Shown here: positions 31,751 to 47,984 of the stretch, piece by piece
Numbering within the stretch: the first letter of the stretch is position 1
Layout: each line of letters starts with the position of its first letter
Assembly (NCBI GenBank): GCA_012840345.1
Contig: DULO01000031.1
Coordinates: 26,421 to 90,420 of the forward strand
Source of the DNA: Candidatus Fermentithermobacillaceae bacterium
GTDB lineage: Bacteria; Bacillota; Sulfobacillia; Fermentithermobacillales; Fermentithermobacillaceae
Direction: 5' to 3'
Length of the DNA stretch: 64,000 bases
The notes under the pieces: generated by a model
Databases searched by the model: none
What the model saw: the letters and a program-made list of their open reading frames with translations, nothing else
What the model was told of the DNA's origin: nothing
Translations under genes and position numbers: made by a program

Positions 31751-33193
31751 CTAGAGGGACGTGCTAGTTGGGGAACTTACTGGAAGGGTAAAGAAAAAAC
31801 TGGAGCCTTGTCCCAGAACGCTTTCGGCCCAGATCCTTCCGCCGTGCCGCTCCACAACCTTCTTGGCTATCGCCAAGCCCAATCCCGAGCCGCCCGTGGC
31901 CCGCGCCCTTGATTTATCGCCCCTGAAAAACCGCTCAAACACCCTGGGCAAGTCTTCGGGAGCTATTCCTTCCCCGGTGTCGGTCACCTCGAAGGTCACA
32001 AAGGGTTCCGTTTCTTTATCATGATCGCTCCCGTACCCTTTATAAGCGCGAATGGTGATGGTCCCGCCTGAAGGCGTATACCTGAAGGCATTGGACAAGA
32101 GGTTTGAGAACACCTGGCTCACCGCGTCCAAGTCCGCTTGAACCGGCGGAAGGCCTTCTTCCACCCGCTGCTCTACGGCGATGCCCTTACCGGATGAAAG
32201 GCCTTGTACAGACGCCGCGGCCCTTGAGACTAGCTCGGAAGGAAGAACGGGCACTGTTTTGAGGGCAGGCGATGCCTGAACCATATCCAACTGGTCCAGG
32301 TTGGCCAAGAGTCCCTCCAGACGGGTCACCTCGTTGGACATAGCGTTGATGGTATCTTCGTCGGGCTCTGAGATGCCCAGGGAAATGGCCTCCAGGTTCC
32401 CTTTGATTATGGTGAGAGGCGTCCGGACTTCATGGGCCACGTCCGATAGAAACTCCCTCTTGTTTTGCTCTTGGGCTTTGAGCTCCCTCGACATGTAGTT
32501 AAAAGACCTTACGAGCTCTCGCATATCCATTGGCGCCCCGGGCACGTCGGCTACCTGGTGGCCGAAATCGCCTTGAGCCACTTTTGAAGAAGCGTCGCGA
32601 AGGGCCTCGAGGGGGCTGGAAATACCTTTCGACAGCCTGACGGCCAAGAACAAAGCCACCGCCATGGACACCGCGCCCGTGGCCAAGGACGCGCGCCTGA
32701 CGCGCGACAGGAAGGCCTGCTCCAAGAACCCCAGGTCCCCGGACGCCGATAGCGCCGTGACCAGGACGTATCCAACCCTGTTTCCTCTCACGGTGATGGC
32801 CGCCGCGTGTTGCAAAGCCTCCGCGTTTAGCGGCAATATGCCGGCGGCCGAGTCGTAGACCAAATAACCGCGGGCATCAAGGAGAATGATCCTCTCGTAA
32901 TCCTGGCATTCGCTCTGAACGCCCCAGCGGTCCGCCCAACCCGGGTTGAAAGTAATGGAAGGCATCCGCAGGATGAGGCCGACGCCTTCCCACCCTCCCG
33001 TCAACTCATAAAACTGGGACAAGACCGGCACAAGAGATGCCGTGCGAAGGGCGTATTGGTCCTGCACATATCCGTGAAAGGTATCTCCGGTGGCCCACAT
33101 GGCGCCAAGCCAGACCAGCGCCACCCCGATGGCTGATACTAAGAGGAACTGGATGATGAGACGGCCCCTGACGTTGGACATGTCACTTACCAC
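31751..33193 (-). CDS. Sensor histidine kinase (periplasmic sensor-HAMP-HisKA-HATPase)
   Basis: 480 aa with two TMs, H-box LSDVAHEVRTPL and G-boxes. It overlaps the response-regulator stop. Confidence 0.85.
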   Translation of the reverse strand: MVSDMSNVRGRLIIQFLLVSAIGVALVWLGAMWATGDTFHGYVQDQYALRTASLVPVLSQFYELTGGWEGVGLILRMPSITFNPGWADRWGVQSECQDYERIILLDARGYLVYDSAAGILPLNAEALQHAAAITVRGNRVGYVLVTALSASGDLGFLEQAFLSRVRRASLATGAVSMAVALFLAVRLSKGISSPLEALRDASSKVAQGDFGHQVADVPGAPMDMRELVRSFNYMSRELKAQEQNKREFLSDVAHEVRTPLTIIKGNLEAISLGISEPDEDTINAMSNEVTRLEGLLANLDQLDMVQASPALKTVPVLPSELVSRAAASVQGLSSGKGIAVEQRVEEGLPPVQADLDAVSQVFSNLLSNAFRYTPSGGTITIRAYKGYGSDHDKETEPFVTFEVTDTGEGIAPEDLPRVFERFFRGDKSRARATGGSGLGLAIAKKVVERHGGRIWAESVLGQGSSFFFTLPVSSPTSTSL

Positions 33194-33860
33194 TCTTGTA
33201 GCCGACGCCGAACACCGTCAGCACGTATTGAGGTTTTGACGGGTCGGGCTCGATTTTCTTTCTGAGGCTCCAGATATGGGTGTCAATGGTCCTTTCGTAG
33301 CTCTCGTAGATGTCCCCCGCTACGGCGTTCAACAGTTCTTCCCTGGTGAACACCTTTCCGGGCCTGGAGTAAAGGGTCTTAAGAAGCTGAAACTCAGTCC
33401 TGGTTAAGTCTACCTTCTTGCCCGCTATGCTGACTTCCATCTTTTCAGGGTCCAATACCAGGTCCCCAAAGACCATGGGCTTTTGATAAACTTGCCCTGC
33501 CGTCCGCCTCATAATGGCGCGTATCCTAAGGCTAAGCTCCCTGAGGCTGAAAGGCTTGGTCACGTAGTCGTCTGCGCCTAAGCCCAAACCGGCGATCTTG
33601 TCTTCTTCCAGAGACCTCGCCGTAAGAAGCAATACGGGTACCTGGCTGTCTTCGCGAAGGCGCTTAAGGACCTCCCACCCGTTTAGCCTCGGGAGCATGA
33701 TATCCAGCACCACGATATCGGGCTGCTCCTTTTTGAAGACTTCCAGGGCGGAAACCCCGTCGTACGCCAAAGCGACGGAAAAGCCGTCCTTCTCGAGGAA
33801 CTTCCGTATCATCTGGACGATTCCCGGCTCGTCGTCAACGACCAAGACCTTTGGGCTCAA
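33183..33860 (-). CDS. OmpR-family response regulator
   Basis: 225 aa with REC (VLVVDDEP...VVLDIMLP) and a winged-helix trans_reg_C domain. Confidence 0.9.
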   Translation of the reverse strand: MSPKVLVVDDEPGIVQMIRKFLEKDGFSVALAYDGVSALEVFKKEQPDIVVLDIMLPRLNGWEVLKRLREDSQVPVLLLTARSLEEDKIAGLGLGADDYVTKPFSLRELSLRIRAIMRRTAGQVYQKPMVFGDLVLDPEKMEVSIAGKKVDLTRTEFQLLKTLYSRPGKVFTREELLNAVAGDIYESYERTIDTHIWSLRKKIEPDPSKPQYVLTVFGVGYKSGK

Positions 33861-36399: not shown

Positions 36400-37734
36400 C
36401 TACGACAGCCCCAATGACTTCGCTTTCTCGTCAATAGCGTCTTGAAGCGTAGGCCGGCCGATCTCCTGAAGTTCGTAGCGGACCCTGGTCCAGGGTTTGT
36501 CTATTTTGGCTATCCTGCTCAAGTCTATGGGCGTGGCCACTACTACCCCATCGCAAGGCGTCTTCCGGATCGTCTCTTCCAGGTCCCTCACTTGCCCCTC
36601 TCCGTATCCCATAGCAGGCAGCAAAGTGCCGATCCTGGGATAAGTCCGGTATGTTTCCAAGATGCTCTTTACGGCGTACTCCCTGGGATCCACCAGTGAT
36701 TCCGCTCTGTAACGTTTGGCGGCGACCACACCCGCGCCAAAGGTCATCTCCCCGTGGGTAAGCGTTGGCCCGTCCTCAATGACCAGCACTTTCTTTCCTC
36801 TGATAACCTCGGGGTTATCCACGAAAATGGGCGAAGCGGCTTCTACCACGATGGCGTCGGGATTAAGGGAATCGATGCTTTCCCTGACTCTCTCCACCCC
36901 GTCGGGCGACGCGGTGTCGACCTTGTTTATTACGATGATGTCAGCCATGCGCAGGTTAGTCTCGCCCGGATGGTAACGCTCCTCGTGTCCCGGGCGGTGA
37001 GGATCGACCAGTACGATGTGAATGTCGGGACGGTAGAACGGTATGTCGTTGTTGCCGCCGTCCCACAAGATGATATCGGACTCAGCTTCCACTCCCCGGA
37101 GTATCCGCTCGTAGTCGACTCCCGCCCATACGACCAGCCCCCGGTCAACTATGGGTTCGTACTCCTCTCGTTCCTCGATGGTGCACTTGTGGATGTCCAT
37201 GTCTTCATAGGTGGCGAATCTCTCCGCGGCTTGAGCCAGAAGGTCCCCGTAAGGCATAGGATGGCGGACGACCCCCACCTTACGGTTCTTGGAGACCAGG
37301 ATATCGGCGACCCTCCGGGTGGTCTGGCTTTTGCCAACACCGGTTCTCACGGCGGTCACCGCGATGACCGGCTTAGTCGACTTCAGCATGGTAGTCTTCG
37401 GGCCCATGATGCGGAAGTCGGCGCCGGCTGCCGCGCACATTGAAGCCTTGTGCATCACGTACTCGTGGGGTACGTCGCTGTACGCGAAGACTACCTCGTC
37501 AACATCATGGGAAGCGATTAGCCGGGGGAGGTCCGCTTCCGGGTAAATGGGAATGCCGTCCTCGTAACCGGGACCCGCCAGTTCCGGAGGGTACCTGCGC
37601 CCCGCTATGTCCGGGATTTGGGCCGCCGTGAAAAACAACACCCTGTAGTCAGGGTTCCCGCGGAAATACACGTTGAAGTTGTGGAAGTCCCTGCCTGCCG
37701 CCCCCATGATCGCGACCTTTTTGGGGTTCCCCAC
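36400..37734 (-). CDS. Cyclic 2,3-diphosphoglycerate synthetase-like (BioD/CobQ-like deviant-Walker-A ATPase) protein, paralog 1
   Basis: 444 aa. GTG start 7 nt after GGAGGA. Deviant P-loop AVTAVRTGVGKSQTT and ILWDGGNND motifs. ~70% identical to the 39917..41239 product. Confidence 0.6.
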   Translation of the reverse strand: MGNPKKVAIMGAAGRDFHNFNVYFRGNPDYRVLFFTAAQIPDIAGRRYPPELAGPGYEDGIPIYPEADLPRLIASHDVDEVVFAYSDVPHEYVMHKASMCAAAGADFRIMGPKTTMLKSTKPVIAVTAVRTGVGKSQTTRRVADILVSKNRKVGVVRHPMPYGDLLAQAAERFATYEDMDIHKCTIEEREEYEPIVDRGLVVWAGVDYERILRGVEAESDIILWDGGNNDIPFYRPDIHIVLVDPHRPGHEERYHPGETNLRMADIIVINKVDTASPDGVERVRESIDSLNPDAIVVEAASPIFVDNPEVIRGKKVLVIEDGPTLTHGEMTFGAGVVAAKRYRAESLVDPREYAVKSILETYRTYPRIGTLLPAMGYGEGQVRDLEETIRKTPCDGVVVATPIDLSRIAKIDKPWTRVRYELQEIGRPTLQDAIDEKAKSLGLS

Positions 37735-37759: not shown

Positions 37760-39748
37760 CTAACTGACCGCCCTCGTCTCTTCTGTCCTCGGGGTCTTGA
37801 CCCAGGCCTTGGGTTCTTTCCCCATAGACTTCAACACCAGCGCGCTGGTATATGGCACAGGGAACATGAACGCCGCCAAAGGCAAAAGGAACAATCCCAT
37901 GTAGACACAGAACCTGCCCAACCAGGAGTTGGGACAGCAGCTGTTGTCAAGATGAGCGCTGTACCTGCGAAACGCGTAGAAAGTGAACCCGAGATAGATG
38001 GCGGAAAACCCGCTCAGCATCCACTGTCCCGCCGCCGGCACAAGAGTGGCGTCCATAAGGTCCTGGTGGTGCAACACCATGGCTATTGGCGGCACAAAGG
38101 TGGCCAGTTGGTACAGGACCCACTCCAGCTGGCCCTTGATAATGAGACTCAGGCGCAGCCGTCGTTGGGCTGATCTCTCCACATCCTTATAGGTTAGGAC
38201 CTTGTCGACCACCTGAAGATGTCCGGTGCCCCACCTAAGCCTCTGGCGAAAGAAGGCTTTAAAAGTCGGAGGTGTCTGCTCTGATGACGAATAAGGAAGG
38301 TATTCGGGCCAGGCTCCTCTCAAGAGATAAGCTCTCGTCCCGAACTCAAGGTCTTCTGTGAGTACGTGACAGTCCCACCCTCCTACCTCTCTTAAGAGGT
38401 CGTGAGCTATGAAGACGTTGGTCCCGCCGACAAAAGGCAAGGTGCGGAACAGCCAAGGAAGGTACCAATCGTGGGCGACGGCCTGATACAGGGCGGCAAT
38501 GCGGCAGAAGGGCGTCATCTGGTAGAAGTTCCTTACCTGGAACACGGGGCCTTGCAAGACTCTTGACTTCTCGGGGTCCATCATTCTCCTGTAGCCCACA
38601 TATAGAAGGACATCCTTATGAGGCCTGCTCTCCGCGTCGTAGAACCCGACGACTTCGGTCCTGGGGTCCAGGTAGTTGATTCCCCAGTTCAAAGCCCTAC
38701 CCTTGGTGGACGGTACCGGTCTTCCCGTCTTTTTTCCGTTGAGAGCGCCGTCAAAGTCGTAGGGCACGACCACGTGCCTCACGGCCGGAACGCCTGGTTT
38801 TTGGGCGGCTTCCGAGGCGACTCTGTCCACCACTTCTTGGGTGGTAGGGTATAGATCCAAGAGAGCGTGGCGTATCTTATCCCGTATTTCGCCCGTCCTA
38901 GACGCCTTGCGGACGGCTTGGCACACCCGTTTGGCTATCAAGTCGGTCATCCGCCGGATGATGTCTTGAGTCAGGTCATGGTTCGCCTTGATTGTGTGCT
39001 GAATGGTCCTCCTTAAGATCTTCCGGCTCGATTCGTCGCAGATCTCGGAGTACGCCGCTATGACCGGCACGGCTACCGCCAAGCAAGCGGGATACAGCCT
39101 CTCGATGTCCAGTTCGGAAAGCCACGGACAAGTCTTTTTCAGTATGCCCTTGAGCCTCCCCGCCTGAGGGGCCCCGTGAGAAGCGAGTATGGCGATGCTG
39201 ATGCCTCTCACCACGGCGTGGCGTTCGAGCCCGGGAAGCAGATAGAGCTCGGACGCTCCCGACGGGTAGTCTTTTTGAAAGCCTTTGGACAGGTATTCCC
39301 TCAACGCGTACTCGGAGAGGCAGGATACTATAACGGCCCGGAGTTCCACCTCGTGTCTTGACCGGACTCCTTCCCTTTCCCCCGACAAGATCTCCACGGC
39401 CAAAGCCTCCAAGGCTTTACGGTCTTCTTGAGCCGCCAGGATCTCTTTTTCGTCGGTCACCACCATGACTTCGTAACGGCCTTGCGGGTACCGCAAGGAA
39501 AGCAAATGGTTGATTGTGTTTTCAATGACCAGGGATTCGTTTCGGGCCGGGACCATGATGCTGATAAAAGGAACGGGCCTACCCAGTGAAGCCGCCGTCT
39601 CTTCTATGAAGGCGGGCTTTAGAGTCGGCTTCCTATTCCAGTACTTTCGTTCGCTGTAGTGCTTCCAGACCAGAAACCTGGCAAATAACAAAAAGAACAC
39701 AAGATAAACCGCGTACGCGACGAGGTACAGAGTCTGGGCGGGCGTCAT
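37760..39748 (-). CDS. Processive family-2 glycosyltransferase (membrane, QxxRW type) with large insertion
   Basis: N-terminal TM, SIMVPARNES GT-A motif, DAE(D) motifs, QRLRWGTG and C-terminal TM helices. The start is placed at ATG MTPAQTLY (39748), because the listed TTG at 39844 lies inside the upstream terminator's U-tract. Confidence 0.75.
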   Translation of the reverse strand: MTPAQTLYLVAYAVYLVFFLLFARFLVWKHYSERKYWNRKPTLKPAFIEETAASLGRPVPFISIMVPARNESLVIENTINHLLSLRYPQGRYEVMVVTDEKEILAAQEDRKALEALAVEILSGEREGVRSRHEVELRAVIVSCLSEYALREYLSKGFQKDYPSGASELYLLPGLERHAVVRGISIAILASHGAPQAGRLKGILKKTCPWLSELDIERLYPACLAVAVPVIAAYSEICDESSRKILRRTIQHTIKANHDLTQDIIRRMTDLIAKRVCQAVRKASRTGEIRDKIRHALLDLYPTTQEVVDRVASEAAQKPGVPAVRHVVVPYDFDGALNGKKTGRPVPSTKGRALNWGINYLDPRTEVVGFYDAESRPHKDVLLYVGYRRMMDPEKSRVLQGPVFQVRNFYQMTPFCRIAALYQAVAHDWYLPWLFRTLPFVGGTNVFIAHDLLREVGGWDCHVLTEDLEFGTRAYLLRGAWPEYLPYSSSEQTPPTFKAFFRQRLRWGTGHLQVVDKVLTYKDVERSAQRRLRLSLIIKGQLEWVLYQLATFVPPIAMVLHHQDLMDATLVPAAGQWMLSGFSAIYLGFTFYAFRRYSAHLDNSCCPNSWLGRFCVYMGLFLLPLAAFMFPVPYTSALVLKSMGKEPKAWVKTPRTEETRAVS

Positions 39749-39839
39749 GATGTCGGCTTCCACTCCCTTGTCGGTTAACGCTTTCTGTGCCCAACCAGTA
39801 TTGTTGCGCTTGCCGGATGGGGCTATGCGCCAGCGTAAC

Positions 39840-39873
39840 CTCAAAAGGAAAGCGGTCCCTGTTCGGGACCGCT
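39840..39873 (-). terminator. Rho-independent terminator downstream of cpgS-like paralog 2
   Basis: Minus strand: GCGGTCCC-gaaca-GGGACCGC, a perfect 8-bp stem, followed by TTTCCTTTTGAGG. Confidence 0.6.
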
Positions 39874-39916: not shown

Positions 39917-41239
39917 TTAGAGGACGCCTCCCACCGCTTCTATGGCTTCTTTGAGCGTAGGAGTCCCCACCTCTTGAAGTTCATACCGCACGCGCATTGA
40001 CGGCTTGTCGATCTTCATGATCCGCCGCAAGTCTATTGGGGTTGCCACAAGCACTAGGTCACACGGGGTGCGCGCCACCGTCTCTTCCAGTTCCGACACC
40101 TGTTTGGGTGAGTACCCCATTGCCGGAAGCACGGGTCCCAGGTGGCTGTACTTCTCGAAAGTGCGGGCAATGCTGCCTACGCTGTACGGCCGCGGGTCAA
40201 CCAGTTCCAGCGCTCCCCACTTCCGCGCTGCCATAACGCCGGCCCCGTAAGCCATCTCGCCGTGGGTGAGAGTCGGGCCGTCTTCTATGACCAGCACCCG
40301 CTTGCCTGTGATTTCCTGTCCCCTCTCAGGGAACACGGGGGAAGCGGCTTCGACTATTATGGCCTTGGGATTAAGTTTCCTGACGTTGTCCCTGACCGCG
40401 TCCACATTGGCCTTGTCCGCCGTGTCTATCTTGTTGATCACCACTATGTCGGCCATGCGAAGGTTGGTCTCACCGGGATGGTACGAAACCTCGTGCCCGG
40501 GCCTGTGCGGGTCAACCAACACTATGTGACAGTCTGACTTATAGAACGGGATGTCGTTGTTGCCGCCATCCCAGAGGATCACCTGGGATTCTTCCTCCGC
40601 ACGCTTTAGTATTTCGCCGTAGTCAACCCCGGCGTACACAATAATCCCGCGGTCGATGTGGGGTTCGTATTCTTCCCGCTCTTCGATGGTGCACTCGTGA
40701 AGATCCAGGTCCGCGTAGGTTTCGAACCGCTGGCAAGCCTGCTTAGCCAAGTCTCCGTAGGGCATTGGGTGGCGAATAGCGGCCACTTTTTTCCCTGAAG
40801 CGCGCAGGAGCTCCGCGACTTTCCTGGTGGTCTGGCTCTTACCCACGCCCGTTCGCACGGCGCAGACCGAAATCACCGGGTTCCTCGATTTTATGGCGGT
40901 CGCGTTGTACCCGATGAGTTTGAAATCGGCTCCCGCGGAAAGAACTATGGACGCTTTGTGCATAACGTCCACGTGGCTTATGTCGCTGTAGGAAAAGACA
41001 ACTTCATCGACCTTGTGCTTTACTATGAGGTCCGGCAGTTCTTCCTCCGGGTAAATGGGGATGCCGTCTGGGTACCGCTCTCCCGCCAATTCGGGAGGAT
41101 AGCGCCTTCCCTCAATGTTAGGTATTTGCGTGGCGGTGAAGCAGACGACTTCGCTTTGGGGATCGTTCCTGTAAACCGTGTTGAAGTTGTGGAAATCCCT
41201 GCCCGCTGCCCCCATAATGATGACCTTCTTGGCACACAT
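39917..41239 (-). CDS. Cyclic 2,3-diphosphoglycerate synthetase-like protein, paralog 2
   Basis: The start is ATG MCAKKVIIMGAAG at 41239 with a GGAGGAGGAG RBS, colinear with paralog 1. Same P-loop and DGGNND motifs. Confidence 0.6.
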   Translation of the reverse strand: MCAKKVIIMGAAGRDFHNFNTVYRNDPQSEVVCFTATQIPNIEGRRYPPELAGERYPDGIPIYPEEELPDLIVKHKVDEVVFSYSDISHVDVMHKASIVLSAGADFKLIGYNATAIKSRNPVISVCAVRTGVGKSQTTRKVAELLRASGKKVAAIRHPMPYGDLAKQACQRFETYADLDLHECTIEEREEYEPHIDRGIIVYAGVDYGEILKRAEEESQVILWDGGNNDIPFYKSDCHIVLVDPHRPGHEVSYHPGETNLRMADIVVINKIDTADKANVDAVRDNVRKLNPKAIIVEAASPVFPERGQEITGKRVLVIEDGPTLTHGEMAYGAGVMAARKWGALELVDPRPYSVGSIARTFEKYSHLGPVLPAMGYSPKQVSELEETVARTPCDLVLVATPIDLRRIMKIDKPSMRVRYELQEVGTPTLKEAIEAVGGVL

Positions 41240-41277: not shown

Positions 41278-42309
41278 CTATCGCGCCCAAACCTCTCCCA
41301 CTATTTCAAGAGGTCTCCGGCACTTGGGACACGCCTTACCGTCCAGGTAAGATGCTTCCAGCTCCATTCCTCCCCGTTCCAGCAAGAGTTCTCCGCATTT
41401 CGGGCACCTCGTGTCCGCGTAACCTGTTTTCCAAGCGTTGCCTATGTAAACATAGTGAAGGTTTCTAAGAGCCACTTCCCTAAGCCTCTCCAAAGTCTCC
41501 GTGGGCGTCACCTGCTCTCGCGACTTGTAGGCGGGAAAGTATCTAGATAGGTGCAAGGGTATGGCGGGGCTCAGGGAACCAAGCCAGCCGGACAGGCCCT
41601 CCATGTCTTCGTCTCTATCGTTCTGGCCGGGTATGACCAGACACGTTACCTCCACCCAAGCACCGTACCTGACGGCGCGTTCCACGGTCTTCTTCACGGG
41701 CTCTAAGCGGCCTCCCGCCAGATCGCGGTAGAAATCCTCATCCCAAGCCTTCACGTCTATGTTGAAGGCGCCTACAAGCGGCAGGACCTCTTCCAGAGCC
41801 TTTGGGGAAATGAACCCGTTGGTTACCATGACGTTCAGAAGCCCCTGTTCGTTTGCCAAACGGGCGGAATCAAGAACAAACTCCAGCCCAACCGTGGGTT
41901 CGTTGTAGGTGTAGGCTATCCCCACCACCCGCCGGTCCGCCTGCCTCCTTTGGGACGCGCAAAGCACGATTTCCTCAGGCTCAAACACCTCACAGTAAGG
42001 CCGGGCCTGGGATATCTGCCAGTTTTGACAAAACTCGCACCGGAAGTTGCACCCGAAAGACCCTACCGATAGCAGCATCCCCCCGGGATGGACGTGAAAG
42101 AGGGGTTTTTTCTCTACCGGGTCTAAGGCCAGCGACGTAACCGCCCCGTAATTCCGGCTTACCAGCTTCCCGTCCAGGTTTTGCCTGACCCTGCAAATGC
42201 CGTACTTGCCGGGCGGGATTACGCAGCCGTGGGGGCAAAGCTCGCAGGCCACCTTGCCTCCCTCTTGGCTCCGGTAAAACCTGGCCTCAGTCGACGGCAA
42301 GCTATCCAT
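41278..42309 (-). CDS. AmmeMemoRadiSam-system-type radical SAM enzyme (PFL-activase-like)
   Basis: 343 aa with CNFRCEFC (CxxxCxxC) radical-SAM cluster motif, an N-terminal CELCPHGC and a C-terminal CPKCG...CPKC zinc-ribbon. Confidence 0.8.
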   Translation of the reverse strand: MDSLPSTEARFYRSQEGGKVACELCPHGCVIPPGKYGICRVRQNLDGKLVSRNYGAVTSLALDPVEKKPLFHVHPGGMLLSVGSFGCNFRCEFCQNWQISQARPYCEVFEPEEIVLCASQRRQADRRVVGIAYTYNEPTVGLEFVLDSARLANEQGLLNVMVTNGFISPKALEEVLPLVGAFNIDVKAWDEDFYRDLAGGRLEPVKKTVERAVRYGAWVEVTCLVIPGQNDRDEDMEGLSGWLGSLSPAIPLHLSRYFPAYKSREQVTPTETLERLREVALRNLHYVYIGNAWKTGYADTRCPKCGELLLERGGMELEASYLDGKACPKCRRPLEIVGEVWAR

Positions 42310-42322: not shown

Positions 42323-43735
42323 TCAATGGTATCTGGTTACTTTGAAACGATACAGCCTTACGTCCTTCTCCCTCTCACCTATGCCGGCCTTGCGCTTGGC
42401 GATGGAGACTTGTTCCTCCACCGTGTTGACGCCTGGCAAGTCGGGCAGCAGCAGGCCTCTGCGCCGTCCCTTTTCACAGATAACCCCATATACCTTAGGG
42501 TCAAGGTCCGAGAGAGACTCGACGGGCTCGGAAGGCGAAAGAACGTCCACAGAGTAGTCCAGGTAGTCCAACTCGGAAGAGTCTACCGGTTCGAACCTCG
42601 GGTCCCTCGCGGCCGCGCTGACGGCGTTGGATATGATCTCCGCCGCCAAGCTGGACGTGGTGGCCTCCGTGGTCCCAATGCACCCTCGAAGGTCTCCCTC
42701 TTTATGGATGGATACGAAGACCCCGCCCCGCTCCAGGAACTCAGCGGGCACATCCTTGGGAACTCCTATGATCCTGCCCGTCTTTACGTACTCCTCCACC
42801 GCCTTTCTCGCCAGGGAGACGGGATAGGACTCGCCGCTCCGGATGGAGTTCATACGTTCCTGGCGCTTGCGGTTGATCTCATCCAAACGGGGGGCCTTGA
42901 GTTCTCCCTTTGGAGTAAACAGGGCCACCGAGTACCCTACCCCGAAAGGTCCTTCGTAAGACAGGACCTGGGACGAAACCTCCACGCGGTCCAAGATGCC
43001 CAGCATGAGGGCGATGGGCCTGAGCCCGCATTCGCCCGCCTCTTCTATCAGGTCTTTGGGCAGCGTCAGTATCTTGGAAGGCTCGAAGTCTCTTAGCAGG
43101 TTTATCAGTTCCCGGTCGAAGACCTCGCCCTTGGGGCTGTACCCCGCGGGAGCATCACGAGTAAGCCTGTGGGACAGATCGCCTGAGCACAACACGGCCA
43201 CCCGGCGTCCCAAGCTCCGGCATGCCCGCTCCACGGCTATGCCCGCTCTGTAAAGGTCCAGAAGGGAAAGGAACCCGATGTTGAGCACTACCATACGCCC
43301 GGCAAAGCCCTTTCGCGCAAGGAAACTCACGGGCACGACGACCCCGTGGTCGAGACGGTCGCCTATCATGTACCGGGAGCGTGTATTCCTGTCCAACAGG
43401 ACGGCCGGGGTGCTAGGGTCTTTGGAGAGCTCCCGAACTAACGCGGAAGCCAGGTCGGAGTCGTTTAGGTAGCGTACGCGGACTTCGGGGGCTCCGAACC
43501 CCGACAGGTCCCCGATAAGCTCCGCTTCATCCCTCACCGACAGGGCATCTCTGAATACCGGGCCGTGGGGGGTGATGACCAACAGGGTTTCAGGTCCGGC
43601 GTCTATGAAGGCGGAAGCGAGCCGGTCCATTGCCCGTCGCGTAGCCAGAACCTTTCTCTCTTCGCCGCGCCCCACCTCGGGGAGCAATATCGCCGGATGC
43701 GGGGCCAGTCCGCACAAGACCACGCTTGTCGTCAC
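42323..43735 (-). CDS. Fusion protein: class-III extradiol-dioxygenase-like (Memo/LigB superfamily) domain + AMMECR1 domain (AmmeMemoRadiSam proteins B+A)
   Basis: A GTG start 2 nt after the racemase stop, with an AAGGTGG RBS. N-terminal CGLAPHPAILLPE...ITPHGPVF...SGDLSHRL (LigB/Memo-like). C-terminal RGCIGT...DPRF (AMMECR1). Confidence 0.7.
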   Translation of the reverse strand: MTTSVVLCGLAPHPAILLPEVGRGEERKVLATRRAMDRLASAFIDAGPETLLVITPHGPVFRDALSVRDEAELIGDLSGFGAPEVRVRYLNDSDLASALVRELSKDPSTPAVLLDRNTRSRYMIGDRLDHGVVVPVSFLARKGFAGRMVVLNIGFLSLLDLYRAGIAVERACRSLGRRVAVLCSGDLSHRLTRDAPAGYSPKGEVFDRELINLLRDFEPSKILTLPKDLIEEAGECGLRPIALMLGILDRVEVSSQVLSYEGPFGVGYSVALFTPKGELKAPRLDEINRKRQERMNSIRSGESYPVSLARKAVEEYVKTGRIIGVPKDVPAEFLERGGVFVSIHKEGDLRGCIGTTEATTSSLAAEIISNAVSAAARDPRFEPVDSSELDYLDYSVDVLSPSEPVESLSDLDPKVYGVICEKGRRRGLLLPDLPGVNTVEEQVSIAKRKAGIGEREKDVRLYRFKVTRYH

Positions 43736-43736
43736 G

Positions 43737-44801
43737 TCAGCGCACCACCTTTTCCACAAATGGAGACGTCGCCGCCTGCAAAAGGGAACTGTAAGCGGGG
43801 ATGAACCGCAGCATTGAGCCAACCTTCACATCCCCCGCGTCCTGAACGTCCAAAATGAGATGGTCTGAAGACGCTCCTAATACCTGCACTCCCGGTTCCA
43901 GAGGGGTCAGCCCGTCAGGATCTATGTCCTGCCGTCCCGCGGCACAGATGGCTCTCTTGCGGATTCCCCGGTCTGGAAAAGTAACCACGAGACCGAAAGC
44001 GTTTTGCCCGACCTGTCCTTCCGGTTTTGAGGGCTTGGTTTGGACTTCTATGACTTCCGCGACTATGGTAAAGGCGTCTGGGTAACACCCGGGGACAGGA
44101 GACCTATGGACCGCTTCCGTCCCCAAAAGCACGCTTTCGCCTATGCGGAGTTCGGTTATCCCCGCGGGCATCTCCTTGTTCATCACCAGGGGCATGTTGG
44201 CCGAATTGCCGCCTGACACGGTTTCCAGCTTTAGTCCTAGGCTCGACTCGATATCGTCCCTTACTTTGAGCAATGCCTCCATCTTCTCCCGGGTCGGGAT
44301 TACCCCGCCGTAGCAAGCCAGGTTCACCCCGATACCCGCCAGCTTCACGCCGTCTTCTGAGCTCATGGCTTTGGCGGTTTCCACTGCCTTGTGGACGGGA
44401 ACTCCCTCCCGGAGGTCTCCCAGGTCCACCATGAGTACCACCTTGTGGGTCCTGTTTGCCTTCCTCGCCGCCTTGGCCAGCATCCTGACGACTTCCACTT
44501 CAGAGTTTAGGCTCACGTCGGCGACCGCTACCGCTTCGTCCACTCGGCTGGGCGCCGGGGACCTCAGGAGCACCGTTTCCCCCGCGTATCCGCCCTCTCT
44601 TGCCCTGGCGAGGTTCTCAACCCGGGAATCAGCTATAGCGGCGGCACCGCCCTCAACCATGGCCTTCACAACCGCGGGGTGACCCAGTACGGACTTGGGA
44701 ACGCCGACCAGCCTCATGCCCAACTCGCCCAGCATAGACGACACCACGCGGGTGTTGTGCCTGATTTTGGCCGTGTCGATAACCAATGCAGGTAGCTTCA
44801 T
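43737..44801 (-). CDS. PLP-dependent alanine-racemase-fold protein (ornithine racemase / YhfX-like)
   Basis: 354 aa, N-terminal TIM-barrel PLP domain (VLGHPAVVKAMVEGGAAAIADSRVENL...VVLMVDLGDLREG) and a C-terminal beta domain. Confidence 0.7.
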   Translation of the reverse strand: MKLPALVIDTAKIRHNTRVVSSMLGELGMRLVGVPKSVLGHPAVVKAMVEGGAAAIADSRVENLARAREGGYAGETVLLRSPAPSRVDEAVAVADVSLNSEVEVVRMLAKAARKANRTHKVVLMVDLGDLREGVPVHKAVETAKAMSSEDGVKLAGIGVNLACYGGVIPTREKMEALLKVRDDIESSLGLKLETVSGGNSANMPLVMNKEMPAGITELRIGESVLLGTEAVHRSPVPGCYPDAFTIVAEVIEVQTKPSKPEGQVGQNAFGLVVTFPDRGIRKRAICAAGRQDIDPDGLTPLEPGVQVLGASSDHLILDVQDAGDVKVGSMLRFIPAYSSLLQAATSPFVEKVVR

Positions 44802-46144
44802 TAGACCAACCCCAGACTTGTCTTTAGAATTGTCATGGCCTCACTCGGCTTTTCTCTGGAAAGCACGCCGCATGCCGCCATGATGTAGTCCTTGTCTATA
44901 AGGATGCGGGCGTCTTTCGGGTAAAGCTCCCTTCCGGCGCCCTGCCCGATCAGTCTCTTCAGTATCTCTTCCCCGCCTGGAAGCCTGGTTAGGGCCCCGC
45001 CTGTTCCGATGATCGTTCCTACGCTAGATAGGTCTTTCCCGCTTGCGACGGCCTGTCTGCCCGACGGCCCGTAAAGATACCGGATTCTGCCGGCGTGCCG
45101 CGAAAACGCGATCTCGCAGGCGGCCTTGGTAAGATACGACACCAAGCGGGATTCACGATCCGAGGGTATCACGCTGAGTTTGTCCAAAAGAGGCTCGGGA
45201 TCAAAGCCAAGCTCAAGAACTGCTCTATCCTTCACTTCTTCATAGACGTTCTTGGCGTTGATGAACACTCCCAAGTCCCCTTCAACGGTCCGTTTGGCCA
45301 AGGGCTCAGGGTTCTCCAGGATGGCCTGGATTTCGGGGCTCCCTTTTGCCACCGAGTGAACGTCGGTCGTGGCGCCGCCCACGTCGAGAGCGCACAAGTC
45401 TCCCAAATCCTCCCACAAGACCTTACACGCTTCCATAACGGCGCCGGGCGTCGGCATTATGGGCCCGTCCACCATTTCCCTGATAGTATCCATCCCCGGG
45501 GCTTTGGTAATGTGCTCCTCAAACGCCGCCTGTATCACCTTTCTGGCGGGCTCCACCACCAGTTCGTCAACTCGCGGAAATACGTTTTCAACAAAGTACA
45601 CCTTGCCCCCGTGGTCCTTGAGGATGTCCGCCACTTCCTGCCTGGCGGCTATATTGCCGGCGTAGATGATTGGGACATCGGGCAGAACTTCGTGAAGCAC
45701 CCTCGCGTTATGCAAGGCGGTAGATTTCTCGCCGTAATCCACCCCTCCGGCCAAGAGCGCTATCTTGGGCTTCACCTTCTGAAGACGCAGAGCGTCGGAC
45801 GAGGTCATCTCGCCGGCGGTTATGAATCTAATCACCGCTCCCGCTCCCAACGCCGCTTCCTTGGCGGCCCTGACGGTCATGTCGTATACCAGGCCGTGGA
45901 CGCTCATGGAAAGCCCTCCGGCCGCGCTGGAAACCGCCATCATGCGGTCGTAGTCCAGCGAACCGGCGCCAAGGGACTCCTTTAGCCGGTCCAAAGCCTT
46001 GCGCAGCCCTAGAGTGACGTCTCCTTGGGCGACAGTGGTCTCCGACACCCCCTGCCCAAGAAACCGCGGGTCTTTCGAAAGGTCAAAAGCGTTCACTACT
46101 GTGGTTGTGCTGCCGATCTCGGCGACCAATGCATGGACTTTCAT
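44801..46144 (-). CDS. Glutamate mutase L (GlmL/MutL)-family ASKHA protein, paralog C
   Basis: 447 aa with N-terminal ALVAEIGSTTTVVNAF and ALDVGGATTDVHSV, the length and motifs of the GlmL family. The preceding RBS is AAGGAGAGG. Confidence 0.75.
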   Translation of the reverse strand: MKVHALVAEIGSTTTVVNAFDLSKDPRFLGQGVSETTVAQGDVTLGLRKALDRLKESLGAGSLDYDRMMAVSSAAGGLSMSVHGLVYDMTVRAAKEAALGAGAVIRFITAGEMTSSDALRLQKVKPKIALLAGGVDYGEKSTALHNARVLHEVLPDVPIIYAGNIAARQEVADILKDHGGKVYFVENVFPRVDELVVEPARKVIQAAFEEHITKAPGMDTIREMVDGPIMPTPGAVMEACKVLWEDLGDLCALDVGGATTDVHSVAKGSPEIQAILENPEPLAKRTVEGDLGVFINAKNVYEEVKDRAVLELGFDPEPLLDKLSVIPSDRESRLVSYLTKAACEIAFSRHAGRIRYLYGPSGRQAVASGKDLSSVGTIIGTGGALTRLPGGEEILKRLIGQGAGRELYPKDARILIDKDYIMAACGVLSREKPSEAMTILKTSLGLV

Positions 46145-46310: not shown

Positions 46311-47057
46311 CTAGCTGGACGAGTGGACGAAAGAAATGACGGCTTGCCTTATGCATTCCGCAAGCTTCTGTTGGTAAGCGGGCGAACCCAGAAGGGCCTC
46401 CTCCTCAGGGTTTGATAGAAATCCCAGTTCCACGGTGGCCGCGGGGACGTTCCCATAGTTCAACATGAAATGGTCGAGGCGGGCCGAGTGTTCCCTGTCG
46501 GTATCCGTCTCTTTTCTGAGGATTTCTTGGATTAGCCTTGCCAGCTTCTCGGAGTCAGGGTGCTTCTTGGCGTTGTAGAACGTCTGTGCCCCTCTTTCCC
46601 TCGGATCGGTGAACGCGTTGCAGTGGAGAGACAGCACTATGGTGGCCCCTGAGGAGTCGATAAGGCGCTGCCTGGCGGTAACGTCGTCGATTTCGTCGGA
46701 TTCCAGGTCGTAATCTCCCGTGCGGGAGTATACGACCTTGGCCCCGCTCTTCTCCAGCCTGACCCCCAGGTACAAAGCCACGTTCAGGGCTATGTCTTTC
46801 TCGAGGTACCGGCTTCCGCAGGCCCCGGGATCGATCCCGCCGTGGCCGGGGTCTATGTATATAACCTGACCCTCCAGGGGTTTGGTGGTATCCGCCGGCT
46901 CTCCGGCCGAGATCACTCCCCGTTCAATGAGAAACGGGCGTGAAGCGGCGTAGGCGACCAACGCCAGCGCCAGAGACACGGCCACGGACAGTACAGTGTT
47001 CTTATGGACAATAACAAAAAGGGGCCGGCCGGTTTGCCTGCCCCTTCTTCTCGCCAT
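46311..47057 (-). CDS. cwlD: N-acetylmuramoyl-L-alanine amidase, CwlD-like (germination-specific)
   Basis: 248 aa with a signal anchor and Amidase_3 motifs (IYIDPGHGG...LSLHCNA...E). Its position after rplM-rpsI matches Bacillus. Confidence 0.8.
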   Translation of the reverse strand: MARRRGRQTGRPLFVIVHKNTVLSVAVSLALALVAYAASRPFLIERGVISAGEPADTTKPLEGQVIYIDPGHGGIDPGACGSRYLEKDIALNVALYLGVRLEKSGAKVVYSRTGDYDLESDEIDDVTARQRLIDSSGATIVLSLHCNAFTDPRERGAQTFYNAKKHPDSEKLARLIQEILRKETDTDREHSARLDHFMLNYGNVPAATVELGFLSNPEEEALLGSPAYQQKLAECIRQAVISFVHSSS

Positions 47058-47154
47058 ACAAAATCCCCCGCGTGTTGCTTAAGTTACTCCAAAAGATATA
47101 CGGTCGGGCAAGGAAAAATGACAGACCCAACGCCTGTCAGATCCTTCCCAAAGG

Positions 47155-47544
47155 TTAACGCTTGGAGAACTGCGGAGCCTTCCTAGCCTTTTTCAGACCG
47201 TACTTGCGGCGCTCCTTCATGCGCGGGTCCCTGGTCAGGTAACCGGCTTTCTTCAGAGGAGTATGGAAGTTCTCGTCCACTTGGAGTAGAGCGCGGGCTA
47301 CTCCGTGCCTGCACGCTCCCGCCTGGCCGCTTAGGCCTCCGCCGATGACGTTTACCACGAGATCGAACTTGCCCTCGGTCTCCGTCACTCTGAAAGGCGC
47401 GATTACTTCCTGCTCCAAGCTGGGATTCATGAAGTAGCTCGATAGGTCCTTGCCGTTTATCGAGATATTGCCCGAACCCGGGGCAATCCTAACCCTGGCC
47501 ACAGCGTTTTTCCGGCGACCGGTCGCGGAAATGGTCTCTGCCAC
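47155..47544 (-). CDS. rpsI: 30S ribosomal protein S9
   Basis: A GTG start overlaps the rplM stop (TAGTG), with an AGGAGGAG RBS. TGRRK...[10 protein letters not shown]...[16 protein letters not shown]. Confidence 0.85.
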
Positions 47545-47984
47545 TACAATTCTCCTCCTTGCCACACCGAAGGCTTCTGCGACTCGTGGGGATGAGTGCC
47601 GCCTCTGTAAACAAACAACCGTTTCATGAGTTTCCGTGAAAGGCGCGTGTGAGGGAGCATCCCCTTAACGGCCGTCTCAATCACCCTCTCAGGGTGCTTC
47701 TTGATCATGAACTTGTAAGGAGTAAGGCGGGCGCCTCCTGGATAGCCGGAGTGGGTGAAGAACATCTTCTGCTCCATTTTCTTGCCGGTCAGCTTGACCT
47801 TCGAAGCGTTCAATATGATAACACTATCCCCCATGTCAACCGAGGGTGTATAGGTTGGCTTGTGTTTGCCTCGGAGTATTGTCGAAACCAAGGTCGCGAG
47901 CCTTCCCAAGGGCTTTCCCTCTGCGTCAATAACCCACCATTTCCTCTGGTCAGGACTGGGTTTCGCCATGTACGTCTCGCCCAA
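47544..47984 (-). CDS. rplM: 50S ribosomal protein L13
   Basis: TTG start. [30 protein letters not shown] is colinear with the B. subtilis L13 N-terminus. Confidence 0.9.

What the first reader, a model, noticed from the sequence alone, without database searches (positions are those of the whole stretch)
42323..43735. Single-polypeptide fusion of AmmeMemoRadiSam proteins B (Memo/LigB-like) and A (AMMECR1), translationally coupled to a racemase-fold gene
The N-terminal half has class-III extradiol-dioxygenase-like motifs (HPAILLPE, TPHGPVF, SGDLSHRL) and the C-terminal half has the AMMECR1 RGCIGT motif. The dedicated radical SAM partner lies immediately downstream. A GTG start sits 2 nt after the racemase stop, which indicates coupled translation with a PLP enzyme. 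This points to an amino-acid-derived substrate for a system whose function is still unknown.
Basis: partly seen in the sequence, partly recalled or inferred. Interest (0 to 1): 0.6.

Follow-up and report, generated by a model that had tools for sequence, protein, structure and literature searches.

The report
Common LigB–AMMECR1 fusion beside ornithine-operon remnant
This gene is a real, widespread and already annotated fusion of an iron-enzyme-like domain with an AMMECR1 domain that pairs with a radical SAM enzyme of unknown function. The racemase in front of it is the last gene of a partly deleted ornithine-fermentation operon, so it is not a reliable clue to what the system acts on.

Summary
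The gene lies on the minus strand at 42323-43735 and encodes one 470-aa protein. Residues 10-270 match Pfam LigB (123.7 bits) and residues 306-468 match AMMECR1 (158.3 bits). A TIGR04337 radical SAM gene follows after 13 nt. The GTG start lies 1 nt after the racemase stop and has a good Shine-Dalgarno sequence.

The fusion is not new. All 120 best database hits have the same two-domain architecture at about 465-475 aa, including cultured Thermincola, Orenia and Thermosediminibacter. NCBI names them 'AmmeMemoRadiSam system protein A'.

The N-terminal half is not canonical protein B (Memo). It scores 19.1 bits on TIGR04336, below the cutoff of 26. Its fold is closest to TK2203 and class III extradiol dioxygenases, and Memo1 is more distant. 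It keeps a full His-His-Glu site, a catalytic His and an invariant Cys.

The conserved unit is the fusion plus the radical SAM gene, adjacent in 51 of 64 loci with enough flanking sequence.

The racemase is Orr. In sister genomes the complete operon ord-ortA-ortB-oraS-oraE-or4-orr sits between cwlD and the fusion. Here only or-4 and orr remain. The link occurs in one Bacillota clade only (0 of 80 more distant loci). It therefore reflects inherited gene order and says little about the substrate. The function of the system remains unknown.

The parts
42323..43735 (-). Fusion gene, 470 aa, GTG start, stop at 42323-42325. This is the long form of 'AmmeMemoRadiSam system protein A'.
   Evidence: ORF. 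An identical 470-aa protein, P0001, is in the database. TIGR04335 scores 143.3 bits against a cutoff of 99. The AlphaFold2 model has pLDDT 93.2 and pTM 0.85.
42926..43708 (-). N-terminal LigB/TK2203-type metal-site domain (aa 10-270). Conserved residues are H13, H57, D129-H130, D186, H189, R190, E235, C236, R239, Y260 and Y268.
   Evidence: Pfam PF02900 scores 123.7 bits. H13, H57, H189 and E235 align with His13, His62, His195 and Glu251 of aminophenol dioxygenase beta (3VSG_B). The best fold match is 5HEE, with TM 0.87.
42836..42889 (-). Linker helix between the two domains (aa 283-300).
   Evidence: DSSP on the model gives a helix at H283-300. Sequence conservation is low in alignment A1.
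42332..42820 (-). C-terminal AMMECR1 domain (aa 306-468).
   Evidence: Pfam PF01871 scores 158.3 bits. PDB 1VAJ (PH0010) matches at E 7e-22 by sequence and 3.6e-17 by fold.
42671..42688 (-). RGCIGT motif (aa 350-355), the AMMECR1 signature with its invariant Cys.
   Evidence: Read directly from the sequence (CGA GGG TGC ATT GGG ACC on the minus strand). Invariant in 36 of 36 sequences.
43733..43751 (-). Shine-Dalgarno sequence AAGGTGGTG (43751-43743), racemase stop TGA (43739-43737), 1-nt spacer, and the fusion's GTG start (43735-43733).
41278..42309 (-). AmmeMemoRadiSam radical SAM enzyme, 343 aa. It carries CNFRCEFC (CX3CX2C), an N-terminal CxxCxxxC..C group and a C-terminal CxxC..CxxC ribbon.
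   Evidence: TIGR04337 scores 292.6 bits against a cutoff of 220. The next-best families are glycyl-radical-enzyme activases at 69 bits or less. It is adjacent to the fusion in 51 of 64 loci.
43737..44801 (-). Orr-type PLP racemase, 354 aa. It is the last gene of the eroded ornithine-degradation operon.
   Evidence: NF040742 scores 395.6 bits, below the cutoff of 480. Racemases that end complete ord..orr operons score the same, 390.3 bits. It is 60-66% identical to the Orr of the complete operons in L097, L098 and L100. dN/dS against L001 is 0.09.
44801..46144 (-). Or-4, the GlmL-related ornithine-degradation protein, 447 aa. Its end overlaps the orr start by 1 nt.
   Evidence: NF040744 scores 632.1 bits against a cutoff of 600. 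It is 72% identical to the Or-4 of the complete operon in L098.
46311..47057 (-). cwlD-like amidase. It is the synteny anchor at the end of the ribosomal-protein region. A 166-nt gap separates it from or-4 and contains a promoter-like site at 46233-46204.
   Evidence: TIGR02883 scores 170.6 bits, below its curated cutoff of 221.55, and Pfam Amidase_3 scores 152.5 bits. It lies upstream of the fusion in 16 loci and in Thermincola potens. The promoter scan is.
39917..41239 (-). GTPase-like protein of 440 aa, distantly similar to cyclic 2,3-diphosphoglycerate synthetase. It is a clade-level downstream neighbour and probably not part of the module.
   Evidence: Pfam cobW scores 27.9 bits. PDB 9SXB matches at E 2e-5. 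It lies downstream of the radical SAM gene in L001-L005 and L097-L101. When an OTCase is present, it sits directly upstream of this gene.

Best explanation
**What it is.** The gene encodes the common 'long form' of AmmeMemoRadiSam system protein A. A LigB/TK2203-type metal-binding domain has an intact 2-His-1-Glu site, a catalytic His and an invariant neighbouring Cys. It is fused through one helix to an AMMECR1 domain. Together with the radical SAM gene directly downstream, this forms a two-gene version of the three-gene AMMECR1/Memo/radical-SAM system. The LigB-type domain occupies the place that Memo (protein B) holds elsewhere.

**Likely mechanism (inferred, not shown).** The PflA-like radical SAM enzyme starts the chemistry by abstracting a hydrogen atom with a 5'-deoxyadenosyl radical. 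The substrate is held in the AMMECR1 cleft (the LRGCIG cysteine). The Fe(II)-type site of the N-terminal domain then carries out an oxygen-independent follow-up step. The hosts are anaerobes and the partner enzyme is oxygen-labile, so dioxygenase chemistry is unlikely. The substrate is most likely a housekeeping molecule. The published proposal is a nucleotide or RNA base, or an isoprenoid. A free amino acid is less likely.

**The racemase.** It is Orr, the terminal gene of an ornithine-fermentation operon. That operon was inserted once, in an ancestor of this Bacillota clade, between cwlD and the pre-existing fusion/radical-SAM pair. In this genome it has since been cut down to or-4 plus orr. 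The tight junction makes the pair the distal end of that transcription unit. It does not define the pair's substrate.
For: **Identity**
- All 120 best homologs share the LigB+AMMECR1 architecture, and many are named protein A by NCBI or JGI.
- The AlphaFold2 model is confident (pLDDT 93.2, pTM 0.85).
- The fold ranking is TK2203, then extradiol dioxygenases, then Memo1.
- The metal ligands align with those of 3VSG_B.

**Module**
- The radical SAM gene is adjacent in 51 of 64 loci that have at least 1.1 kb on both sides.
- No other neighbour family is common, and there is no standalone Memo cluster.
- In a CPR genome the same three domains occur as three separate genes: radical SAM, a 261-aa LigB-like protein and a 170-aa AMMECR1 protein.

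**Housekeeping position**
- Thermincola potens has S13-S11-S4-rpoA-L17-ecfAA'T-truA-L13-S9-..-cwlD-fusion-rSAM, the same backbone as the window.

**Racemase**
- Complete ord-ortA-ortB-oraS-oraE-or4-orr operons sit directly upstream of the fusion in L097-L100, and L102 has at least oraE-or4-orr.
- The window has no ord, ortAB, oraSE or OTCase anywhere in its 64 kb.
- All orr-linked loci fall in one clade of the fusion tree.
- None of 80 more distant metagenome loci has it.

**Pathway roles**
- The roles of orr, oraSE, ord and ortAB are taken from PMC8803604.

**Substrate hints**
- rtcA and rtcR lie next to fusion-rSAM in one Gram-negative lineage.
- A standalone AMMECR1 gene overlaps a polyprenyl-diphosphate synthase gene in L008.
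- Aravind's group refers to 'Memo-Ammecr1 systems' with a related radical SAM domain (PMC7159879).
- From my memory of the abstract of Burroughs et al. 2019 (J Biol Chem 294:10211; I could not read the paper here), they link these systems to nucleotide-base and isoprenoid modification.
Against: - No experiment or direct computation addresses the chemistry. The order of steps and the substrate class are inference.
- I could not inspect model coordinates, so the distance between Cys352 and the metal site is unknown.
- orr is kept intact under purifying selection (dN/dS about 0.09). It stays translationally coupled to the fusion in two independent lineages that lost the rest of the operon at this locus (L001 and L101). 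Pure synteny does not fully explain this.
- 13 of 64 loci have no radical SAM gene within 10 kb.
- The rtcR and polyprenyl contexts are each a single lineage.
Confidence: 0.7

Rival explanations
1. The racemase is a functional partner: it supplies a D-amino-acid or ornithine-derived substrate to the fusion/radical-SAM module, at least in this clade.
For: - The orr-fusion junction is tight in every clade member examined, from a 4-nt overlap to a 3-nt gap.
- 23 of the 64 closest fusion clusters share a contig with a racemase homolog. This is inferred from matching contig lengths; six cases were checked directly and all six are adjacent.
- orr is retained alone next to the fusion in two independent reductions of the operon (L001, L101), with dN/dS 0.09.
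- An OTCase follows the radical SAM gene in L001, L097 and L100, so ornithine genes flank the pair on both sides.
Against: - The association maps to a single clade and so to a single insertion event.
- It is absent from 80 more distant loci and from Thermincola and Thermosediminibacter.
- It is also absent from sister Fermentithermobacillaceae genomes, which keep the fusion and radical SAM genes (L002-L005).
- The racemase is the ortholog of the Orr that completes a self-sufficient, characterised pathway.
- The OTCase always pairs with the GTPase gene, not with the radical SAM gene.
- The missing ornithine genes may simply lie elsewhere in this genome.
Confidence: 0.1
2. The radical SAM enzyme is a protein activase, like pyruvate formate-lyase activase. 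It installs a radical or a covalent modification on the fusion protein itself, for example at the invariant Gly/Cys of LRGCIG. The fusion would then be a new radical enzyme whose metal domain completes catalysis.
For: - Apart from TIGR04337 itself, the radical SAM protein's best family matches are all glycyl-radical-enzyme activases (YjjW-type 69 bits, PflA 59.6 bits, and others).
- The AMMECR1 motif has invariant Gly351, Cys352 and Gly354.
- The two genes are almost always adjacent.
Against: - The matches to activases are far below their cutoffs (69 against 250 bits).
- LRGCIG does not resemble the RVxG glycyl-radical motif (from my own knowledge).
- No glycyl-radical-enzyme fold is present: the fold hits are only AMMECR1 and LigB types.
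- This idea is untested here.
Confidence: 0.15
3. The N-terminal domain is a genuine O2-dependent extradiol ring-cleavage dioxygenase for aromatic catabolism. Its fusion to AMMECR1 would then be incidental.
For: - It has the full 2-His-1-Glu triad and catalytic His, aligned to aminophenol dioxygenase.
- The Pfam LigB score is 123.7 bits.
Against: - There are no aromatic-catabolic neighbours in about 100 loci.
- The partner is an oxygen-labile radical SAM enzyme.
- The cultured hosts named (Thermincola, Thermosediminibacter, Orenia, Halanaerocella) are strict anaerobes (from my own knowledge).
- The NCBIfam dioxygenase equivalogs score 25-26 bits against cutoffs above 300.
- The fusion is kept over thousands of sequences.
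Confidence: 0.03
4. The fusion is an artefact: two genes joined by a sequencing or assembly frameshift.
For: In a CPR genome (L006) the two domains are separate genes.
Against: - The ORF is continuous.
- An identical protein was recovered independently (P0001, on a Logan contig).
- All 120 best hits are collinear fusions of mostly 445-478 aa.
- The AlphaFold2 model is confident across the junction.
Confidence: 0.01

Closest known systems
AmmeMemoRadiSam three-gene system (NCBIfam/TIGRFAM TIGR04335 protein A, TIGR04336 protein B, TIGR04337 radical SAM enzyme)
   Same: The C-terminal domain passes the protein A model and the neighbouring gene passes the radical SAM model, and the two are adjacent. 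NCBI already names this protein family 'protein A'.
   Different: There are two genes, not three. No standalone Memo-type B is present. The fused N-terminal domain fails the B model cutoff and is LigB-type.
TK2203 of Thermococcus kodakarensis (PDB 5HEE), a standalone LigB-fold protein deposited as a putative uncharacterized protein
   Same: It is the best sequence match (89.7-91.7 bits with the family profile) and the best fold match (TM 0.87, 24% identity) to the N-terminal domain.
   Different: TK2203 is a standalone protein of 262 aa. At the position of the conserved AGECG loop it has ALPDS, so it lacks the Glu/Cys pair. At SGDLSH it has SADHGH.
Class III extradiol dioxygenases (LigB, DesB, HpaD/DHPAO, 2-aminophenol 1,6-dioxygenase, DODA/YgiD; Pfam PF02900)
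   Same: The fold is shared (TM 0.70-0.79). The His/His/Glu metal ligands and the catalytic His are at homologous positions.
   Different: There is an extra invariant Cys next to the Glu. The domain is fused to AMMECR1 and partnered with a radical SAM enzyme in anaerobes. There is no aromatic-degradation context.
Memo/MEMO1 (PDB 3BCZ, 7KQ8, 7L5C; Pfam PF01875) and the 'Memo-Ammecr1 systems' of Burroughs et al. 2019
   Same: Memo belongs to the same superfamily, has the same kind of partners (AMMECR1 and a radical SAM enzyme), and its biochemical function is likewise unknown.
   Different: Memo1 is the most distant of the fold matches (TM about 0.57, 11-12% identity). Profile searches give no sequence-level hit. 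Only 16 of 36 family members touch Pfam Memo, and only weakly.
Ornithine oxidative-degradation (Stickland) gene cluster ord-ortA-ortB-oraS-oraE-or4-orr (Fonknechten et al. 2009, as cited in PMC8803604)
   Same: The window's or-4 and orr are orthologs of the last two genes of this cluster. The cluster is intact, in the same place and in the same order, in sister genomes.
   Different: Here the cluster is truncated to its last two genes. Ord, OrtAB and OraSE are not found anywhere in the 64 kb.

Membership tests
AmmeMemoRadiSam system protein A (TIGR04335 / Pfam AMMECR1) | Score at or above the curated HMM cutoff | tested here: met
   TIGR04335 scores 143.3 bits against a cutoff of 99. PF01871 scores 158.3 bits against 25.
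AmmeMemoRadiSam system protein A (TIGR04335 / Pfam AMMECR1) | LRGCIG signature with an invariant Cys | tested here: met
   LRGCIGT lies at aa 349-355 and is invariant in 36 of 36 relatives.
AmmeMemoRadiSam system protein A (TIGR04335 / Pfam AMMECR1) | Genomic association with the TIGR04337 radical SAM enzyme | tested here: met
   The radical SAM gene lies 13 nt downstream and scores 292.6 bits against a cutoff of 220. It is adjacent in 51 of 64 related loci.
AmmeMemoRadiSam system protein B / Memo (TIGR04336, PF01875) | Score at or above the curated HMM cutoff | tested here: not met
   TIGR04336 scores 19.1 bits against a cutoff of 26. PF01875 is not reported for this protein at E<=0.01. Some relatives pass: the L006 standalone protein scores 38.2 bits and the L007 fusion 29.8 bits.
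AmmeMemoRadiSam system protein B / Memo (TIGR04336, PF01875) | Fold closer to Memo than to other branches of the superfamily | tested here: not met
   Foldseek gives Memo1 a TM of about 0.57 (E about 1e-9). TK2203 gets 0.87 and the extradiol dioxygenases 0.70-0.79.
AmmeMemoRadiSam system protein B / Memo (TIGR04336, PF01875) | Memo-type His/His/Cys site (human Memo H49, H81, C244, with D189/H192) | not tested
   H13, H57, D186, H189 and C236 are invariant here. Their equivalence to the Memo residues rests on my memory of the Memo sequence (ICGRHPI against ECGLRPI) and not on an alignment made here.
AmmeMemoRadiSam system protein B / Memo (TIGR04336, PF01875) | Fills the third-component slot next to protein A and the radical SAM enzyme | tested here: met
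   No separate Memo-family gene lies beside the fusion and radical SAM pair in about 100 loci. In L006 the domains are split into three genes in the order radical SAM, LigB-like, AMMECR1. Whole genomes could not be searched.
Class III extradiol dioxygenase (LigB, PF02900) | Score at or above the Pfam gathering threshold | tested here: met
   123.7 bits against 26.3. All 36 relatives match.
Class III extradiol dioxygenase (LigB, PF02900) | 2-His-1-carboxylate Fe(II) ligands plus a catalytic His | tested here: met
   H13, H57 and E235 align with His13, His62 and Glu251 of 3VSG_B, and H189 aligns with His195. The ligand roles in 3VSG_B are from my memory of the literature. E235 is at least 90% conserved and the histidines are invariant.
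Class III extradiol dioxygenase (LigB, PF02900) | O2-dependent aromatic ring-cleavage activity and an aromatic-catabolic gene context | tested here: not met
   The context part was tested: no aromatic-catabolic neighbours appear in the census, and the dioxygenase equivalog models score 25-26 bits against cutoffs above 300. The activity itself cannot be tested with these tools.
Ornithine racemase Orr (NF040742) | Score at or above the curated HMM cutoff | tested here: not met
   395.6 bits against a cutoff of 480. NCBI names it 'alanine/ornithine racemase family PLP-dependent enzyme'.
Ornithine racemase Orr (NF040742) | Terminal gene of an ord-ortAB-oraSE-or4-orr cluster | tested here: inconclusive
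   Orthologs at 60-66% identity end complete clusters in L097-L100 and score the same 390 bits. In the window itself only or-4 precedes it.

The most novel reading that the evidence does not exclude
In one Bacillota clade the AMMECR1/LigB-type/radical-SAM pair was captured as the distal end of the ornithine-fermentation operon. Orr has since been kept next to it, intact and translationally coupled, even where the aminomutase, dehydrogenase and thiolase genes were lost from the locus. If that retention reflects function and not just expression constraints, the module would act on ornithine or on a D-amino-acid-derived metabolite. That would be the first substrate clue for the AMMECR1/Memo system, which is universal and disease-linked but still uncharacterised.
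Probability: 0.1. Interest if true: 0.7.

Novelty: already known. Interest (0 to 1): 0.25.

Why it matters
AMMECR1 and Memo are conserved from archaea to humans and are linked to human disease, yet neither has a known biochemical activity. Any solid substrate clue would therefore matter. This locus does not provide one. The fusion is the ordinary, already annotated bacterial form. The racemase neighbour is explained by an eroded ornithine-fermentation operon.

Three points may still be useful:
- The 'B' slot in thousands of bacterial systems is filled by a LigB/TK2203-type domain with an intact Fe(II) triad plus an invariant Cys, not by canonical Memo. This may guide biochemical work in anaerobes.
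- Current HMM cutoffs split this domain family arbitrarily: some members pass TIGR04336 and this one does not.
- The clade-wide orr-fusion coupling gives a cheap, testable side hypothesis.

Tried and rejected
- **Early wrong conclusion, corrected.** My first census used 11 genome loci and 80 metagenome loci. It suggested that the racemase link was unique to this organism and one relative. That was a sampling artefact, because the loci were either one family without the operon or relatives at 51% identity or less. The racemase homolog search and six targeted look-ups showed that the link is clade-wide and revealed the complete ornithine operon.
- **Literature.**
  - Burroughs et al. 2019 (PMC6664185) and Fonknechten et al. 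2009 (PMC2681807) are not held.
  - 'AmmeMemoRadiSam' appears only in passing in six papers.
  - None of the 25 AMMECR1 papers listed for 2019 onward (116 matched) addresses its biochemistry.
  - One search was wasted because 'memo' matched 'memory', and another gave nothing.
- **Other ornithine-pathway genes in the window.** None were found.
- **Canonical Memo in the PDB.** A family profile found none at E<=10.
- **Frameshift or two-gene artefact.** Rejected.
- **Aromatic-catabolism role.** Rejected on context.
- **Not possible with these tools.** I could not run a multimer prediction of the fusion with the radical SAM enzyme. I could not inspect model coordinates to measure the distance from Cys352 to the metal site. 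I could not search whole genomes for a separate Memo gene or for relocated oraSE genes.
Full report
**1. What is there**

The feature lies on the minus strand. The ORF from GTG at 43735 to the stop at 42323-42325 encodes 470 aa. The longest possible ORF, from TTG at 43822, would run 86 nt into the upstream gene. Three observations support the GTG start.
- An identical 470-aa protein (P0001) exists in the public collection.
- The N-termini of 35 relatives align with it.
- A Shine-Dalgarno sequence, AAGGTGGTG, ends 7 nt upstream.

The junction with the racemase gene reads TGA-C-GTG, which is a 1-nt spacer. The junction with the downstream radical SAM gene is TGA, then 13 nt, then ATG.

**2. Domain identity**

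Pfam places LigB (PF02900) on aa 10-270 at 123.7 bits and AMMECR1 (PF01871) on aa 306-468 at 158.3 bits. NCBIfam gives three relevant results.
- TIGR04335 (protein A) scores 143.3 bits, above its cutoff of 99.
- TIGR04336 (protein B, the Memo type) scores only 19.1 bits, below its cutoff of 26.
- The downstream gene scores 292.6 bits on TIGR04337, above its cutoff of 220.

An AlphaFold2 model built from a 36-sequence alignment is confident throughout (pLDDT 93.2, pTM 0.85). It shows one helix (aa 283-300) linking the two domains.

Foldseek against the PDB ranks the N-terminal domain's matches as follows.
- TK2203 (5HEE) is closest, with TM 0.87 and E 1e-21.
- Next come aminophenol dioxygenase, HpaD, DOPA dioxygenase, DesB and LigB, with TM 0.70-0.79.
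- Memo1 follows, with TM about 0.57 and E about 1e-9.
- Nucleoside phosphorylases appear faintly at the bottom of the list.

The C-terminal domain matches PH0010 (1VAJ). A family profile finds no Memo chain in the PDB even at E<=10. Among 36 family members, all 36 match Pfam LigB and only 16 match Pfam Memo, weakly.

In the profile alignment to aminophenol dioxygenase beta (3VSG_B), four residues line up.
- H13 aligns with His13.
- H57 aligns with His62.
- E235 aligns with Glu251.
- H189 aligns with His195.

These are the 2-His-1-carboxylate iron ligands and the catalytic base of that enzyme class; I assign those roles from my memory of the literature. Next to E235 sits an invariant Cys236, in the loop AGECGxRP. 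TK2203 lacks both residues.

The N-terminal half is therefore a LigB/TK2203-type member of the LigB-Memo superfamily. It is not a canonical protein B.

**3. The fusion is ordinary**

The homolog search returned 7790 proteins at E<=1e-5. All 120 listed hits carry both domains; most are 445-478 aa and a few are 419-492 aa. They include proteins from cultured Thermincola potens, Orenia marismortui, Thermosediminibacter oceani and Halanaerocella petrolearia. NCBI calls them 'AmmeMemoRadiSam system protein A', and JGI sometimes calls them 'A/B'.

The neighbouring genes of this very locus are already in GenBank, from a Candidatus Fermentithermobacillaceae MAG (HHW26159-26164).

**4. The conserved unit**

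I made a census of 96 loci.
- **Radical SAM gene.** Of 64 fusion loci with at least 1.1 kb on both sides, 51 have it adjacent: 49 directly downstream and 2 upstream.
- **Other neighbours.** The only other recurrent neighbour is a cwlD-like amidase upstream, in 16 loci.
- **Memo.** No cluster of standalone Memo-like genes appears.

Thermincola potens shows S13-S11-S4-rpoA-L17-ecfA-ecfA'-ecfT-truA-L13-S9-..-cwlD-fusion-rSAM. This is the same backbone as the window, where L13, S9 and cwlD lie at 46311-47984. The pair therefore sits at the end of the most conserved housekeeping region of Bacillota chromosomes.

In a CPR genome (L006) the three domains are three separate genes: radical SAM, a 261-aa LigB-like protein and a 170-aa AMMECR1 protein. 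This shows that the N-terminal domain family also exists unfused in the same system.

**5. The racemase**

My first census suggested that the racemase link was nearly unique to this organism. That was wrong and came from sampling.

All six that I looked up directly show adjacency.

Four loci (L097-L100) carry the complete ornithine oxidative-degradation operon. The gene order is cwlD, then ord-ortA-ortB-oraS-oraE-or4-orr, then fusion-rSAM, sometimes an OTCase, then GTPase-GT2-GTPase-GDT1-NYN. NCBIfam confirms three of these assignments in the related loci.
- Ord scores 507 bits against a cutoff of 400.
- The OraE fragment in L102 scores 475 bits over the part of the gene that is on the contig.
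- Or-4 scores 596 bits.

The Orr of these complete operons scores 390 bits on NF040742, the same as the window's 395.6. The window's racemase is therefore their ortholog, and the sub-cutoff score is a property of the clade.

The pathway runs as follows (PMC8803604).
- Orr racemises L-ornithine.
- OraSE moves the amino group.
- Ord oxidises the product.
- OrtAB cleaves it to acetyl-CoA and alanine.

The window has or-4 (632 bits, cutoff 600) and orr. It has no ord, ortA, ortB, oraS, oraE or OTCase anywhere in its 64 kb.

A neighbour-joining tree of the fusion proteins puts every orr-linked locus in one clade. The full operon is the likely ancestral state of that clade, and there were at least three reductions.
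- L101 kept only orr.
- The window kept or4+orr, and its sister L001 kept only orr.
- L002-L004 lost everything.

Outside the clade the link is absent. None of the 80 metagenome loci has it, and neither do Thermincola or Thermosediminibacter.

The simplest reading is one insertion of a catabolic operon directly upstream of a pre-existing housekeeping pair, followed by erosion from the operon's 5' end.

**6. What stays unexplained**

orr is intact and under purifying selection. Between the window and L001, dN/dS is 0.09, the same as for the fusion itself; dS is 1.35, close to saturation. In two independent reductions orr is the one gene kept, always tightly joined to the fusion. There are three possible reasons.
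- The other pathway genes lie elsewhere in these genomes.
- orr carries the promoter or ribosome-binding context that the fusion now depends on.
- There is a real functional link.

I rate the third at about 0.1.

**7. Mechanism**

Nothing here measures chemistry, so this section is inference.
- The radical SAM protein has the CX3CX2C motif, an extra N-terminal Cys group and a C-terminal CxxC..CxxC ribbon. Outside its own family it resembles glycyl-radical-enzyme activases most closely, but only weakly.
- The hosts are anaerobes and the partner enzyme is oxygen-labile. Dioxygenase chemistry at the intact Fe-type site is therefore unlikely.
- I favour a single-substrate module. In it, radical SAM chemistry initiates the reaction, and the AMMECR1 cleft and the metal site bind and finish it, acting on a housekeeping molecule.

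Two contexts are in line with the nucleotide-base or isoprenoid proposal of Burroughs et al. 2019. I know that proposal only from memory of the abstract; its existence is confirmed by the citation in PMC7159879. Each context comes from a single lineage.
- rtcA and rtcR lie next to fusion-rSAM in one Gram-negative lineage.
- A standalone AMMECR1 gene overlaps a polyprenyl-diphosphate synthase gene in L008.

An activase model, with a radical or modification installed on the fusion itself, remains possible (about 0.15).

**8. Verdict**
- The fusion is already known and annotated.
- The 'B' label fails the curated test.
- The racemase is an operon remnant and not a substrate clue.
- Interest is low (0.25), with a small residual chance that the clade-wide orr coupling is functional.

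Noticed in passing
window 44801-46144 (-) and 43737-44801 (-): The ornithine-fermentation operon is truncated: only or-4 and orr remain between cwlD and the fusion. Sister genomes (L097-L100) have the full ord-ortA-ortB-oraS-oraE-or4-orr operon at the same spot. Both remaining genes look intact, and dN/dS is about 0.09 for each (orr against L001, or-4 against L102).
   Followed up: yes
window 44801-46144 (-): NCBI names this Or-4/GlmL-family protein (HHW26164.1) 'DNA mismatch repair protein MutL'. This looks like a mis-annotation caused by the Pfam name 'MutL' (PF13941), which refers to the glutamate-mutase accessory protein family.
   Followed up: partly
window 3954-5750 (-), 12402-14246 (-), 44801-46144 (-): The 64 kb hold three paralogues of the GlmL/MutL family (PF13941), of 598, 614 and 447 aa. 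I found no B12-dependent mutase gene near them. The two long ones sit among FtsX/ABC-transporter genes, a gene with an RnfC_N-like domain, and TPR/HTH genes.
   Followed up: partly
window 36400-37734 (-), 37760-39844 (-), 39917-41239 (-): Two paralogous GTPase-like proteins, 66% identical to each other and distantly similar to cyclic 2,3-diphosphoglycerate synthetase, flank a 694-aa membrane GT2 glycosyltransferase. The trio is conserved in L001 and L097 (GTPase-GT2-GTPase) and partly in L098-L102. When an ornithine carbamoyltransferase is present, it always sits directly upstream of the first GTPase (L001, L048, L061, L097, L100).
   Followed up: partly
L033 5906-10787 (also L034, L035, L038, L041): In one Gram-negative lineage, the fusion-rSAM pair lies directly downstream of rtcR, the sigma-54 activator of the RNA-repair rtc operon, and in the same direction. 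rtcA is divergent from rtcR. In L041 an IS605-family insertion sits between rtcR and the fusion. This may hint at an RNA-related role.
   Followed up: partly
L008 8994-10498: In a Nitrospirae MAG a standalone AMMECR1 gene (170 aa) overlaps the end of a polyprenyl-diphosphate synthase gene by 4 nt. A methylthioribose-1-phosphate isomerase gene lies upstream. No radical SAM or Memo gene lies directly beside it.
   Followed up: partly
L006 7468-9938: In a Candidatus Moraniibacteriota (CPR) contig the same system is split into three genes in the order radical SAM, LigB-like (261 aa) and AMMECR1 (170 aa). This standalone LigB-like protein passes the TIGR04336 cutoff (38.2 bits), but it scores higher on a dioxygenase model (66.4 bits).
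   Followed up: yes
L099 131-1708 (-): A sigma-54-dependent activator with a PAS domain lies divergent from the complete ornithine operon. The operon, and the fusion-rSAM pair coupled to its end, may therefore be inducible in that genome.
   Followed up: no
window 23757-27050 (-) and 31751-33860 (-): Chemotaxis genes (cheA and cheR-like) and an OmpR/PhoB-type two-component pair lie downstream of the locus. They appear unrelated to the finding.
   Followed up: no
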